This document shows positions 1,316-39,382 of a stretch of DNA of 39,382 nt, piece by piece. The notes under the pieces are model-generated. The model had not been told where the DNA came from. It ran no database searches and worked only from the letters and a program-made list of their open reading frames with translations. Origin of the DNA: a virus (Duplodnaviria > Heunggongvirae > Uroviricota > Caudoviricetes). Location: the IMG/VR virus record IMGVR_UViG_2923296884_000001; one strand, given 5' to 3'. The stretch's first letter is position 1; each line of letters starts with the position of its first letter. Position numbers and translations under genes: made by a program.

Positions 1316-1335
1316 AAAGCGCCTGCGGGCGCTTT
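1316..1335 (+). terminator. stem-loop AAAGCGCC-tgcg-GGCGCTTT directly after serS; possibly a truncated native terminator
   Basis: Perfect 8-bp inverted repeat 23 nt after the serS stop, but followed by aagtagagg rather than a T-run. Confidence 0.4.
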
Positions 1336-1414
1336 AAGTAGAGGTTTAATCATTTGAAAATAAATGGATTTTATTTTTAAGTGTCCATATAACGTCCATC
1401 TTTGAATGCAAAAA

Positions 1415-1448
1415 GCCCACAGCTTCTATGCTGTGGGCTTTGTTTTTT
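1415..1448 (+). terminator. rho-independent terminator (plus strand)
   Basis: GCCCACAGC-ttctat-GCTGTGGGC stem-loop followed by TTTGTTTTTT. Confidence 0.6.
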
Positions 1449-1470
1449 GGTGTCCTCATGAGTGAGGGAA

Positions 1471-1504
1471 CCAAAAAGAAAACCCGCAGTTTTTACGCTG
1501 CGGG
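1471..1504 (-). terminator. rho-independent terminator (minus strand), downstream of the hok-like gene
   Basis: On the minus strand CCCGCAG-cgtaaaaa-CTGCGGG followed by TTTTCTTTTT; back-to-back with the plus-strand terminator at 1415-1448. Confidence 0.5.
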
Positions 1505-1598
1505 CTTGTTGTTCACGTCAACTGGAAATAGGGTGCCTTTTCGACCTTTACCCTGGCAACCGATTGACGGGGAAGTTGCCTTCCCCGTCGCGGTTTCC

Positions 1599-1739
1599 TT
1601 ACTGCTTACACTGTAAGAACGCCGCAAACTCCGCTCCCCAGAAGCTCATCCGTATTTCACACAGCGAACCGTGTAGCATCCAGATGATGAGGATTACCGT
1701 CACGCAGAACGTGATGGCCGTAAGCGATTTTTGCGACAT
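1599..1739 (-). CDS. Hok/Gef-family type I toxin homologue (46 aa; below the ORF-track size cut-off)
   Basis: Minus-strand ORF with SD AAAGGAG ~8 nt before the ATG at 1739; translation MSQKSLTAITFCVTVILIIWMLHGSLCEIRMSFWGAEFAAFLQCKQ has an N-terminal TM helix plus the SLCEIR and VAAF-type motifs conserved in Hok/Gef; a perfect palindrome (GACGGGGAAG-ttgc-CTTCCCCGTC, 1566-1589) follows the stop. Confidence 0.55.
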   Translation of the reverse strand: MSQKSLTAITFCVTVILIIWMLHGSLCEIRMSFWGAEFAAFLQCKQ

Positions 1740-1930
1740 AGCGCTTGCTCCTTTGTTGGAGAGGCGCTAACCTATCACTTGCTTAAGGTAGATATGTTAG
1801 GGCCTCGGTTAAACAGAAATGTTTTCCGGGGCCTTTCCACATCTGGCCTTCGGGTATTCCCTCCGACCATCAGCCGAAAGGCACCCGCGCGTAATCTATC
1901 GCTTTTTTGTTACTCCGGCAATTCTGCCTG

Positions 1931-2191
1931 TTAATTCTGAGGTAAAGGCAAACTCATCTGATTGTTTCCCCTGTGTGAAGCTGGCAGCTCATGCCACGGG
2001 ATACCTTCTGAAGAGTGAACGCCGGAGGTGTGTTTTGATGTGAATTTATGGAAAGCTTCCAGTGTTGAGAAGCATACGCCGCATTCCAGGTTGTTACACT
2101 GGTAATACTTTTGCCGCACGGTGTTTGAATCATTTTCCGGACGACTGGTGCGGATACGGGCAGATGCGCCACAAAGCGGACAACGGAACAT
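1931..2191 (-). CDS. ogr: Ogr/Delta-family zinc-finger late-gene activator
   Basis: N-terminus MFRCPLCGASARIRTSR...YYQCNNLECGVCF matches the Ogr C-x2-C...C-x4-C zinc finger; SD AAGGGAGG upstream of the ATG at 2191; sits immediately after D as in P2. Confidence 0.8.
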   Translation of the reverse strand: MFRCPLCGASARIRTSRPENDSNTVRQKYYQCNNLECGVCFSTLEAFHKFTSKHTSGVHSSEGIPWHELPASHRGNNQMSLPLPQN

Positions 2192-2233
2192 AGCGACCTC
2201 CCTTAACGTGGTGCTGCTGCTATTCTAAGTTGC

Positions 2234-38389: not shown

Positions 38390-39382
38390 ATGTCGATTAA
38401 GCAACTCAAAGACGGACGTTATCAGGTCGATGTCAGACCGCAGGGGGCGGAAGGAAAGCGGATTCGAAAAATCTTTGCCCTGAAATCAAAGGCTCAGGAG
38501 TTTGAGAAGTATGTGTTACAGAACTTTCATGACAAGCCATGGCAGGCTAAGCCAGCTGATCAGCGGCGATTATCAGAGCTGCTTGATGCGTGGTGGATGC
38601 TTGATGGTCGTAATCAGGCTTACGGGGATAGCTACAGGGTTAGGCTAGGGAAGGTTGTTCGTGAAATGGGAGATCCTCGCGCCAGTCAGATGACGCGAAA
38701 ATTTATGCTTGAATATCGGTCAGAGAAATTACAGGCCGGATTAATGCCGTCCAGTATTAATCGTGACTTATGCGTACTGTCTACCATGTTCACGGTGCTG
38801 ATTGAAGCTGAGGTCTTTCACAACGCGAACCCTGTACGCGGTATACGAAAACTGAAAGTTCAGAACACAGAGATGGCCTTTCTTTCTGATGATGAGATTG
38901 AACGGCTTCTTGAGCGACTGGAGGGTGATGCGCGTCGTGTTGCCATTCTGTGTCTTTCTACTGGTGCCCGATGGAGTGAAGCATCGGAACTACGTGGAGA
39001 GCATATCGTTGGCAACCGGGTGACGTTCTTTAACACCAAAAACGGAAAATCCCGTTCGGTTCCTGTGGCGGATTCGGTCGTGCCTCTGATTAAAACCCGT
39101 CGAACGGGGTTATTGTATCAGGTTGATTATCTGAAGTTCCGGGAGATTCTTCAGGAGGTGAAACCGGATTTGCCGAAGGGGCAGGCTACGCATGTCATGC
39201 GTCATACATTTGCCACACACTTTATGATGAATGGCGGAAATATTGTTACGTTGCAACGAATCCTGGGGCACGCAACGATTCAGCAAACAATGACGTACGC
39301 TCATTTTTCGCCGGACTTCTTACAGGACGCGATCAACTTTAATCCGCTGGCTGAAAGTGTCCATAAACTGTCCATCGATTAG
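38390..39382 (+). CDS. int: tyrosine integrase (P2 Int family)
   Basis: Start refined to the ATG at 38390 (SD GGAGG); C-terminal catalytic region with ...HVMRHTFATHF...LGHATIQQTMTYAH; stop TAG at 39380-39382 is the last triplet of the window. Confidence 0.92.
   Translation: MSIKQLKDGRYQVDVRPQGAEGKRIRKIFALKSKAQEFEKYVLQNFHDKPWQAKPADQRRLSELLDAWWMLDGRNQAYGDSYRVRLGKVVREMGDPRASQMTRKFMLEYRSEKLQAGLMPSSINRDLCVLSTMFTVLIEAEVFHNANPVRGIRKLKVQNTEMAFLSDDEIERLLERLEGDARRVAILCLSTGARWSEASELRGEHIVGNRVTFFNTKNGKSRSVPVADSVVPLIKTRRTGLLYQVDYLKFREILQEVKPDLPKGQATHVMRHTFATHFMMNGGNIVTLQRILGHATIQQTMTYAHFSPDFLQDAINFNPLAESVHKLSID

What the first reader, a model, noticed from the sequence alone, without database searches (positions are those of the whole stretch)
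1471..1930. Hok/Gef-family type I toxin locus between serS and ogr
A 46-aa minus-strand ORF missed by the size-filtered ORF track has a good SD, an N-terminal TM helix and the SLCEIR/VAAF motifs of Hok-family toxins. It is followed by a perfect palindrome and a terminator, with ~190 nt of potential leader upstream that abuts the ogr stop. It may be phage cargo at the attachment-site end (post-segregational or abortive function) or a host locus the phage integrated beside; the antisense RNA and mok-like frame were not identified.
Basis: partly seen in the sequence, partly recalled or inferred. Interest (0 to 1): 0.55.

Follow-up and report, generated by a model that had tools for sequence, protein, structure and literature searches.

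The report
Phage-borne Hok/Sok toxin–antitoxin cassette
The small gene is a real, intact Hok-family membrane toxin with its antisense-RNA antidote, carried as cargo at the end of a P2-like prophage; it is already annotated and catalogued, so it is an ordinary finding.

Summary
The 46-aa minus-strand ORF (1739→1599) passes Pfam's Hok/Gef threshold. It sits in a complete hok/sok-type cassette (about 1474–1921). The cassette has its own promoter, a 147-nt leader homologous to known hok leaders, and a strong SD held in a local hairpin. It also has a conserved post-stop hairpin, a 3' fold-back element that pairs with the mRNA 5' end (supported by covariation), and an intrinsic terminator.

On the plus strand, a Sok-type promoter (TTGCTC-N17-TAACCT, 1745–1773) has the same -10 hexamer and spacing as annotated sokW of phage 933W. 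It would give a roughly 58-nt antisense RNA (about 1780–1837).

The locus is phage cargo, not host DNA. The attL core is the serS terminator (1317–1336), K-12's empty site lacks the cassette, and P88-like phage genomes carry it beside ogr.

One family feature is missing: no mok-like ORF reads into hok.

It is already known. RefSeq annotates it "Hok/Gef family protein". About 28% of complete E. coli genomes carry the cassette. The exact peptide is listed in a 2026 Hok catalogue, which reports a one-residue variant as toxic. Interest is low.

The parts
1317..1336 (+). attL core, which is also the serS transcription terminator hairpin (AAAGCGCCTGCGGGCGCTTT). It marks the left prophage boundary.
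   Evidence: Identity to the K-12 serS–dmsA spacer ends at 1336. The same 20 bp recurs about 85 nt after the int stop, at attR, in strain U15A, followed by K-12-like sequence up to dmsA.
1337..1470 (.). Prophage DNA between attL and the hok cassette, presumably the attP arm. It holds a bidirectional terminator-like hairpin at 1412–1441.
   Evidence: It is absent from K-12 and not shared with P88 or Chuche, whose homology starts at about 1471.
1474..1507 (-). Intrinsic terminator of the hok mRNA (stem 1507→1480, then UUUUCUUUUU).
   Evidence: Found by the terminator scan. It is conserved with the cassette in P2-like, Salmonella and Klebsiella contexts.
1531..1546 (-). fbi-like fold-back element (GGUCGAAAAGGCACCC) that pairs with the mRNA 5' end.
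   Evidence: The MFE fold pairs nt 1–15 with this element. RNAalifold recovers the helix, with 4 compensatory pairs. 98.2% of cells are paired against 26–49% when slid, and 29 double-change cells are seen against 6.4 in shuffles, 0/500.
1566..1589 (-). Conserved hairpin just after the hok stop codon.
   Evidence: Covarying pairs are GC↔CG ×5 and GC↔AU ×6.
1599..1739 (-). hok CDS: a 46-aa Hok/Gef-family toxin. The stop codon is at 1599–1601.
   Evidence: Pfam PF01848 scores 30.1 bits, above the GA of 22. RefSeq lists it as WP_000078920.1, 'Hok/Gef family protein'. The ORF is conserved in 41 of 41 homologs.
1748..1753 (-). hok Shine-Dalgarno (AAGGAG), predicted to lie inside a local hairpin (GCGCCUCUCC…GGAGCAAGCGC).
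   Evidence: helix at alignment columns 145–150 with 170–175.
1745..1773 (+). Sok-type antisense promoter: -35 TTGCTC (1745–1750), 17-nt spacer, -10 TAACCT (1768–1773). The -35 overlaps the complement of the hok SD.
   Evidence: The 933W sokW promoter has the same layout, spacing and -10 hexamer (TTGCCT-N17-TAACCT, then 6 nt to the annotated 5' end). The -10 is conserved as TAACCT or TATCCT in all 41 homologs. The generic sigma-70 scan did not find it.
1780..1837 (+). Predicted Sok-like antitoxin RNA of about 58 nt: a 19-nt single-stranded 5' tail, then a GC-rich terminator stem-loop (1799–1834) and a short U tail. Both ends are inferred.
   Evidence: Fold. The position relative to hok matches annotated sokW. 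It is fully complementary to the hok leader.
1740..1886 (-). hok mRNA 5' leader of 147 nt. It contains the tac-like 5' end GGGUGCCUUUCGGC (1886→1873) and the Sok target (1837→1780).
   Evidence: Rfam RF01794 matches 1886→1729 full-length at 47.9 bits, E = 2e-9, below its GA of 59. The leader aligns to the 933W hokW leader.
1893..1921 (-). hok promoter: -35 TTGCCG (1921→1916), 17-nt spacer, -10 TAGATT (1898→1893). The TSS is inferred at about 1886.
   Evidence: Read from the sequence. The -10 TAGAWT and the following GCGGGUGCC are conserved in the homologs and in hokW. The generic scan did not detect it.
1931..2191 (-). ogr/Delta-like zinc-finger late activator, the last core gene of the prophage. 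It is context, not part of the cassette.
   Evidence: Pfam PF04606 at 52.4 bits.

Best explanation
The locus is a self-contained hok/sok-type type I toxin–antitoxin cassette (about 1474–1921). It is carried as accessory cargo between ogr and the attachment site of a P88-like (Xuanwuvirus, P2-family) prophage integrated in the serS terminator.

What the sequence shows:
- The minus strand encodes a roughly 413-nt, very tightly folded hok mRNA.
- Its 5' end (tac-like, GGGUGCC…) pairs with a 3' element (fbi-like, …GGCACCC).
- The hok SD sits in a local hairpin.
- The plus strand has a promoter overlapping the complement of the hok SD. It would give a roughly 58-nt Sok-like RNA with a single-stranded 5' tail and a terminator hairpin, fully complementary to the leader.

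What is inferred from the R1 hok/sok and Sp5 hokW–sokW systems:
- The full-length mRNA is stable but translationally inert.
- Slow 3' trimming removes the fold-back element and activates the mRNA.
- While the DNA is present and transcribed, the short-lived Sok pairs with the leader. That blocks expression and triggers RNase III cleavage.
- When Sok synthesis stops, the 46-aa Hok is made, inserts into the inner membrane and kills or permeabilises the cell. Sok synthesis could stop through loss of the prophage, host transcription shut-off by an infecting phage, or prophage induction.

Likely biological roles, none tested here, in my order of preference:
1. Selfish retention of the cassette and prophage.
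2. Help with lysis after induction, as shown for hokW–sokW. No terminator separates the late D–ogr genes from hok.
3. Abortive infection against other phages.

Because no mok frame exists, Sok must act other than through mok coupling.
For: Identity of the peptide:
- Pfam HOK_GEF is above threshold, and HokA is the nearest NCBIfam model.
- All seven residues conserved in more than 80% of Hok peptides (M1, C16, T18, L30, C31, E32, E41 in bioRxiv 10.1101/2025.08.07.668861) are present with identical spacing: M1, C12, T14, L26, C27, E28, E37.
- An N-terminal hydrophobic helix is present.

RNA architecture:
- The leader matches RF01794 at E = 2e-9.
- The mRNA fold z-score is -8.3, with end pairing.
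- tac–fbi covariation is supported: 4 compensatory pairs, 0/500 shuffles reaching the observed value, 98% of cells paired against at most 49% when slid.
- The Sok promoter and position are colinear with annotated sokW, and the Sok fold has the expected shape.

Phage cargo:
- Att mapping places the cassette inside the prophage.
- The cassette sits beside ogr in P88, Chuche and P884B11.
- The prophage is about 95% identical to Xuanwuvirus genomes over 80% of 24.7 kb.
- The same clade sits at prophage ends in Salmonella and Klebsiella, and 308 IMG/VR contigs carry it.

Activity:
- The V14A variant (72_1621) and the Stx-phage variant (72_1589) were among 45 homologs tested, of which only three others were non-toxic.
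- hokW–sokW behaves as a type I TA that aids lysis after induction (PMC8621323).
Against: - No mok-like ORF reads into hok, even when near-cognate start codons are allowed, and none is conserved in the clade. [quoted passage not shown]
- The Rfam and NCBIfam scores are below their curated cut-offs.
- Neither promoter is found by the generic sigma-70 scan. The Sok -35 matches the consensus at only 3 of 6 positions, and the Sok U-tail is short.
- The predicted folds of the 3'-truncated mRNA still hide the SD, so the activation step is not reproduced in silico.
- The alternative 5' hairpin shows no covariation beyond controls.
- No expression, processing or phenotype data exist for this exact locus.
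Confidence: 0.9

Rival explanations
1. It is a host chromosomal hok locus, like hokA–E of K-12, that the phage happened to integrate beside.
For: It lies only about 135 bp from the prophage–host junction. Many E. coli hok loci are chromosomal.
Against: - Identity with K-12's empty serS–dmsA spacer stops at 1336, and K-12 has no hok there.
- The 20-bp core repeat at attR places the cassette inside the prophage.
- Sequenced phage genomes (P88, Chuche, P884B11, 500465-2) contain it next to ogr.
Confidence: 0.02
2. It is a decayed, non-functional hok remnant: a toxin gene that is never expressed, as proposed for several K-12 hok loci.
For: - No mok frame is present.
- Both promoters are weak by consensus.
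- Some relatives are clearly damaged: L006–L008 lack the promoter and the 5' end.
Against: - The ORF is intact in 41 of 41 divergent copies, with excess synonymous change.
- The promoter -10, the tac/fbi pairing with compensatory changes, the Sok promoter and the terminator are all conserved.
- Near-identical peptides were toxic when expressed.
Confidence: 0.06
3. It is chiefly a phage lysis accessory, expressed by read-through from the late D–ogr transcript, rather than an addiction or defence module. Sok merely keeps it silent in the lysogen.
For: - No terminator lies between D–ogr and hok on the minus strand. The hok terminator is the first one downstream.
- hokW–sokW of the Stx2 phage Sp5 increases lysis and halves or doubles phage release, depending on its presence (PMC8621323).
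- The clade sits at prophage ends in several unrelated phage types.
Against: - The cassette has its own promoter and the full fold-back machinery typical of post-segregational systems.
- In lambdoid and other contexts it is not downstream of late genes in the same way.
- No data exist for this phage.
Confidence: 0.3

Closest known systems
Hok 'cluster 72' in Escalera-Maurer et al., bioRxiv 10.1101/2025.08.07.668861 (RefSeq WP_000078920.1; phage P88 gp52, 'MokW-like host killing')
   Same: The exact peptide is entry 1628 of that catalogue. The V14A variant (72_1621) and the Stx-phage variant (72_1589) were cloned for toxicity assays. RefSeq and the phage records annotate the same ORF.
   Different: Nothing differs at the protein level. 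That work did not analyse Sok, mok or the mRNA elements of this cluster, nor its position at prophage ends.
hokW–sokW of Stx2 phages Sp5/933W (Takada et al. 2021, PMC8621323)
   Same: - Both are prophage-borne hok/sok cassettes.
- Both have the same layout: the -10 TAGAWT, a 5' GCGGGUGC…, a Sok promoter of TTGCnn-N17-TAACCT overlapping the hok SD, and a 3' …GCACCC element.
- hokW–sokW is experimentally a type I TA, dependent on RNase III and Hfq.
   Different: - HokW is 51 aa and only 34% identical over 35 residues.
- 933W annotates an in-frame mokW extension. Here that frame is closed by a UAG inside the Sok -10 region.
- Some lambdoid Stx2 phages carry an 83% identical DNA copy of the present 46-aa cassette. 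It is a different gene from hokW: 46 aa against 51 aa.
hok/sok (parB) of plasmid R1
   Same: Both have a Hok-family toxin, a stable folded mRNA with 5'–3' fold-back inhibition, an antisense Sok whose -35 overlaps the hok SD, and a Sok RNA made of a single-stranded 5' tail plus a terminator hairpin. The R1 features are established knowledge and appear in PMC9841398.
   Different: - R1 requires translation of the overlapping 70-aa mok frame. No such frame exists here.
- The host replicon here is a prophage, not a plasmid.
- The peptide is 46 aa against 52.
HokA of E. coli K-12 (NCBIfam NF007290)
   Same: It is the best-scoring curated model. The C-terminal half is similar (…SLCE…AAFL.CK…).
   Different: The score of 35.8 bits is far below the equivalog cut-off of 89, so this is not HokA.

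Membership tests
[quoted passage not shown] | Small toxin matching the Hok/Gef profile (PF01848) above its gathering score | tested here: met
   30.1 bits against a GA of 22, E = 3.7e-7, covering residues 7–44 and profile positions 5–42 of 42.
[quoted passage not shown] | N-terminal transmembrane helix and the conserved Hok residues (M1, C16, T18, L30, C31, E32, E41 of the family logo) | tested here: met
   Hydropathy peaks at 2.7 over residues 8–22. M1, C12, T14, L26, C27, E28 and E37 have the same spacing as the logo. L22, G24, C27, E28, A36, E37 and A39–K45 are invariant in the clade.
[quoted passage not shown] | Long-range pairing of the mRNA 5' end (tac) with a 3' element (fbi) | tested here: met
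   Found in the MFE fold and the RNAalifold consensus. There are 4 pairs with compensatory changes. 98.2% of cells are paired against 26–49% when slid, and 0/500 shuffles reach the observed covariation.
[quoted passage not shown] | cis-encoded antisense Sok gene (own promoter, 5' tail, terminator hairpin) overlapping the hok leader | tested here: met
   Only sequence features were tested. The promoter TTGCTC-N17-TAACCT is colinear with the annotated sokW promoter, and its -10 is conserved in 41 of 41 homologs. The predicted 58-nt RNA has a 19-nt free tail plus a hairpin. Expression was not tested.
[quoted passage not shown] | mok reading frame that starts in the Sok target and reads into or over hok | tested here: not met
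   No ORF with an ATG, GTG, TTG, CTG, ATT, ATC or ATA start between the TSS and the hok AUG reads into hok in the window. Leader ORFs end 35 nt or more upstream and are not conserved. The hokW-type in-frame extension is closed by a UAG 10 codons upstream.
[quoted passage not shown] | Match to the Rfam hok/sok leader model RF01794 at its gathering score | tested here: inconclusive
   A full-length match (model positions 1–157) scores 47.9 bits, E = 2e-9, below the GA of 59. The model is on the hok sense strand: it begins GGGUGCUUGAGG and ends AUG.
[quoted passage not shown] | Toxicity of the peptide, neutralised by Sok | not testable with these tools
   Literature only. The one-residue variant 72_1621 was among 45 tested homologs, of which only 19_179, 60_1482 and 69_1540 were non-toxic. 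Sok neutralisation is untested for this cluster.
[quoted passage not shown] | 3' processing of the full-length mRNA to a translatable truncated form, with tac–antitac refolding | tested here: inconclusive
   Processing cannot be tested here. The alternative 5' hairpin forms in folds of the nascent and truncated RNA, but its covariation does not exceed the controls: 76/500 shuffles, with the structure derived from the window itself.
HokA (NCBIfam NF007290 equivalog) | Score at or above the curated equivalog cut-off | tested here: not met
   35.8 bits against a cut-off of 89.
hokW–sokW of Sp5/933W | Orthology to the 51-aa HokW with an in-frame MokW extension | tested here: not met
   34% identity over 35 aa, a different length, and no mokW-type frame.
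Prophage accessory cargo (moron) at the att-proximal end | Lies inside the att boundaries, has its own promoter and terminator, and is found as one unit in unrelated phage backbones | tested here: met
   It lies inside the att boundaries. The cassette is delimited by promoter and terminator. The same unit occurs in P2-like, lambdoid and other prophage ends next to host genes.

The most novel reading that the evidence does not exclude
This widespread 46-aa Hok cluster would be a naturally mok-less variant of hok/sok. Sok would have to control hok without translational coupling to an overlapping leader frame. It could do so by RNase III-driven decay alone, by blocking a standby site or short upstream ORF, or by steering leader refolding. 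In P2-like phages, the absence of any terminator after ogr would additionally tie Hok production to late lytic transcription.
Probability: 0.3. Interest if true: 0.35.

Novelty: already known. Interest (0 to 1): 0.15.

Why it matters
It matters little beyond correct annotation. The locus is a routine Hok-family type I toxin–antitoxin cassette. It occurs in about 28% of complete E. coli genomes, is already named in RefSeq and phage records, and is listed in a 2026 Hok catalogue.

Two points have modest value:
- The RNA parts of this cluster (Sok, tac/fbi, promoter, terminator) are rarely annotated, and they are mapped here.
- The cluster lacks a mok frame and consistently sits at the att-proximal end of different prophage types. 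That makes it a convenient natural case for asking how Sok works without mok and what hok does for a prophage.

Tried and rejected
- I searched the window for a direct repeat of the serS-proximal sequence to find attR. Nothing turned up, because the window ends at the int stop codon. This was solved by fetching the downstream sequence from strain U15A.
- Strain 4/0 (the first hit, H1) is not colinear with the window at the far end, so I dropped it as a reference.
- The generic sigma-70 scan found no promoter in 1290–2250. Both promoters therefore rest on homology to hokW/sokW and on conservation.
- I searched for mok in all frames with canonical and near-cognate starts, in the window and in nine homologs. 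No conserved frame was found. The 31-aa and 19-aa leader ORFs in the window are not conserved and lack a good SD, so I rejected them as Mok equivalents.
- The tac–antitac metastable hairpin is compatible with the alignment, but it has no covariation signal beyond controls.
- Folds of 3'-truncated mRNA did not expose the SD, so the activation step remains inferred.
- I first assumed the 83% identical Stx-phage match was hokW itself. It is not: hokW is a different, 51-aa gene.
- The host-locus hypothesis is rejected.

Full report
**Observation**

The 46-codon ORF is on the minus strand at 1739→1599 (ATG start, stop at 1599–1601). It translates to MSQKSLTAITFCVTVILIIWMLHGSLCEIRMSFWGAEFAAFLQCKQ. 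The features around it are:
- An AAGGAG Shine-Dalgarno at 1753→1748, 8 nt upstream of the start.
- A hydrophobic stretch at residues 5–22 (15-residue Kyte-Doolittle mean up to 2.7).
- A perfect 10-bp palindrome with a 4-nt loop at 1566–1589.
- A minus-strand intrinsic terminator at 1507→1480 with a U-tract.
- Upstream sequence that runs to the stop codon of an ogr/Delta zinc-finger gene at 1931–2191 (Pfam PF04606).

**Is it a Hok?**

The evidence that it is a Hok-family toxin:
- Pfam HOK_GEF (PF01848) scores 30.1 bits against a gathering threshold of 22, over nearly the whole profile.
- The nearest NCBIfam model is HokA. Its 35.8 bits is far below the equivalog cut-off of 89, so this is a Hok-family member but not HokA.
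- The seven residues reported as conserved in more than 80% of 1,264 Hok peptides (M1, C16, T18, L30, C31, E32, E41; bioRxiv 10.1101/2025.08.07.668861) are all present with identical spacing: M1, C12, T14, L26, C27, E28, E37.
- A search of 5.8 billion proteins returned 68 clusters. Wherever a source supplies a name it is 'Hok/Gef family protein' (one JGI entry says 'protein HokA'); about 19 clusters carry no name. They come from E. coli, Shigella, Salmonella and Klebsiella oxytoca.
- Full-length, correctly called members stay at 46 aa (occasionally 45–47) down to 61% identity. The other lengths in the list are 25–29-aa partial entries and 59–81-aa longer ORF calls.
- In 41 non-redundant homologous loci the ORF is intact in every case (40 with 46 codons, one with 47). 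Synonymous codon differences are in excess (2,433 synonymous against 3,080 non-synonymous).

The ORF is therefore a real, selected coding sequence.

**RNA architecture**

The Rfam family RF01794 ('sok') matches 1886→1729 full-length at 47.9 bits and E = 2e-9, below its gathering score of 59. The hit is on the hok strand. The model consensus begins GGGUGCUUGAGG and ends in AUG, so the model represents the hok mRNA leader, not the antisense RNA. This can be checked against the 933W hokW sequence.

*hok promoter and transcript.*
- Reading the sequence gives a hok promoter of TTGCCG (1921→1916), 17 nt, TAGATT (1898→1893).
- The inferred start is at about 1886 (GGGUGCC…).
- The -10 element and the start region are conserved in homologs and in hokW.
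- The resulting 413-nt transcript (1886→1474) folds to -178.8 kcal/mol, z = -8.3 against shuffles.
- Nucleotides 1–15 pair with GGUCGAAAAGGCACCC at 1546→1531.

*Covariation for the end pairing.* RNAalifold on the 41-sequence alignment A5 recovers this end-to-end helix independently, with four compensatory pairs:
- UA↔CG ×8
- CG↔GC ×8
- GC↔AU ×7
- GU/GC/CG/UA

. A direct count gives 98.2% of cells paired, against 26–49% when the partner is slid. It also gives 29 double-change cells against 6.4 ± 2.1 in shuffles, with 0 of 500 shuffles reaching the observed value. This is the tac–fbi 'fold-back inhibition' that characterises hok mRNAs.

*Other helices.* The post-stop palindrome also covaries. 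The SD lies in a conserved local hairpin, GCGCCUCUCC…GGAGCAAGCGC.

**The antisense gene**

Phage 933W carries an annotated sokW (71 nt), mokW and hokW.
- The sokW promoter reads TTGCCT, 17 nt, TAACCT, then 6 nt to the annotated 5' end. Its -35 overlaps the complement of the hokW SD.
- The window has the same arrangement on the plus strand: TTGCTC (1745–1750), 17 nt, TAACCT (1768–1773), then 6 nt to about 1780.
- The -10 is TAACCT or TATCCT in all 41 homologs.
- From 1780 the RNA would have a 19-nt single-stranded tail, followed by a GC-rich stem-loop (1799–1834) and a short U tail, about 58 nt in all (z = -4.7 for a slightly longer version).
- This shape and position match Sok and SokW.
- Both ends and actual expression are inferred. 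The generic sigma-70 scan detects neither promoter.

**mok**

No ORF starting between the transcription start and the hok AUG reads into hok in the window. This holds for ATG, GTG and TTG starts and also for CTG, ATT, ATC and ATA starts.
- The two leader ORFs (31 aa from 1870, 19 aa from 1842) stop 35 nt or more upstream of hok.
- They lack convincing SDs.
- They are not conserved in the Stx-phage, Salmonella or Klebsiella copies.

In R1, mok translation up to the hok SD is required for Hok synthesis (PMC9841398). This is therefore a real departure from the canonical system and the only unusual feature of the locus. The authors of the 2026 Hok catalogue explicitly did not analyse mok, Sok or mRNA elements.

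**Phage or host?**

The evidence that the cassette is phage cargo:
- Identity to K-12's empty serS–dmsA spacer ends at 1336, directly after the serS terminator hairpin.
- The window ends at the integrase stop codon.
- In strain U15A, which is colinear with the window, the 20-bp AAAGCGCCTGCGGGCGCTTT recurs about 85 nt after that stop. K-12-like spacer sequence then follows up to dmsA.
- The prophage therefore begins at 1337 and the cassette lies inside it.
- Phage genomes P88, Chuche, P884B11, 500465-2 and others carry the same cassette next to ogr at 94–96% identity. It is annotated 'MokW-like host killing' or 'hok/gef family protein'.
- The prophage matches these Xuanwuvirus (Peduoviridae) genomes at about 95% identity over 80% of 24.7 kb.
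- Homology to P88 and Chuche starts exactly at the hok terminator (about 1471). The 1337–1470 segment is specific to this integrase/att type.

The same Hok clade sits at the very end of other prophages, next to host genes:
- U–D–Ogr–Hok | ihfA–pheT in Salmonella.
- Lambdoid tail fibre–Hok | fieF–pfkA.
- Phd/Fic–Hok | ppiD in K. oxytoca.
- Tandem duplicates in other Salmonella.

Some lambdoid Stx2 phages carry an 83% identical copy. It is a different gene from hokW (51 aa, 34% identical). In addition, 308 IMG/VR contigs encode the peptide.

**Mechanism**

*Shown by the sequence:*
- a stable-looking, end-paired mRNA with a buried SD;
- a cis-antisense gene fully complementary to the leader;
- an intact toxin ORF.

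*Inferred from R1 and hokW–sokW:*
- The full-length mRNA is inert.
- 3' trimming activates it.
- Unstable Sok pairs with the leader, and the duplex is cut by RNase III.
- Hok appears when Sok transcription ceases.

For hokW–sokW, SokW disappears and HokW accumulates in the inner membrane after prophage induction. Deleting the locus delays lysis and halves phage release (PMC8621323). On the minus strand no terminator lies between D–ogr and hok, so late read-through could add to hok expression during lytic growth. That is inference. Retention of the prophage, help with lysis and abortive infection are all plausible roles, and none is tested for this cassette. [quoted passage not shown]

**Known or new?**

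- RefSeq annotates the ORF as WP_000078920.1, 'Hok/Gef family protein'.
- The cassette is found in 1,542 of 5,426 complete E. coli genomes, with up to seven copies per genome. It is almost always chromosomal: 1,958 places against 17 on plasmids.
- The exact peptide is entry 1628 of 'cluster 72' in the catalogue of Escalera-Maurer et al.
- The V14A variant 72_1621 and the Stx-phage variant 72_1589 were cloned for toxicity assays. Only three other constructs were non-toxic.
- The same preprint reports enrichment of hok in prophages.

The finding is correct but already known. What this analysis adds:
- coordinates for the RNA elements;
- proof that the locus is phage cargo;
- the absence of mok in this cluster.

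**Verdict**

- Observation: confirmed.
- Interpretation: supported.
- Novelty: already known.
- Interest: 0.15.
- Most novel reading not excluded: a naturally mok-less hok/sok variant tied to late phage transcription (probability about 0.3, moderate interest).

Noticed in passing
window 1317-1336; L102 about 2265-2285: The prophage attachment core is the serS transcription terminator hairpin itself (AAAGCGCCTGCGGGCGCTTT). It is duplicated at attR about 85 nt after the integrase stop. Integration therefore regenerates the serS terminator.
   Followed up: yes
window 1381-1400 and 39354-39377: GTGTCCATATAACGTCCATC in the attL-proximal arm closely resembles GTGTCCATAAACTGTCCATC at the 3' end of the integrase gene. 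These may be arm-type Int binding sites. A bidirectional terminator-like hairpin lies at 1412-1441.
   Followed up: no
L002 (phage Chuche) 461-1403; L001 (P88) 148-390: The slot between the hok cassette and attP/int holds different cargo in related phages. Chuche has a Com-like gene plus a DNA methyltransferase, P88 has a hypothetical gp53, and this prophage has nothing.
   Followed up: partly
L012 3001-3141 and 3491-3631; L013 3001-3141 and 3495-3635: Some Salmonella loci carry two complete hok cassettes of this clade in tandem, about 490 bp apart, with diverged Sok-target regions.
   Followed up: partly
L006-L008 about 2850-2880: In a Salmonella lambdoid-prophage copy, the hok promoter and the 5' tac sequence are replaced by unrelated sequence. 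The ORF, the Sok promoter and fbi remain, so this looks like a partly decayed cassette.
   Followed up: no
L014, L015, L018: Assemblies labelled Planococcaceae UBA3378, Vagococcus sp. WN89Y and Xanthomonas pisi contain this enterobacterial hok clade. The peptide is 100% identical to the query in L014 and L015 and 74% identical in L018, which is an 857-bp contig. These are probably contaminating contigs.
   Followed up: no
window 1886-1729 (minus): Rfam RF01794, named 'sok antitoxin', matches on the hok sense strand. Its consensus begins like the hok mRNA 5' end and ends at the start codon, so the model represents the hok leader rather than the Sok RNA.
   Followed up: partly
window 1931-2233 (minus strand): No intrinsic terminator was found between the tail gene D, ogr and the hok promoter. 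The hok terminator (1507-1480) is the first one downstream of the late genes.
   Followed up: partly
L101 (strain 4/0, record 984000-987500): Strain 4/0 has the identical serS–hok–ogr junction but is not colinear further in. ParM-like and partition genes, and an inverted integrase, lie within the region, which suggests a rearranged or composite prophage.
   Followed up: no
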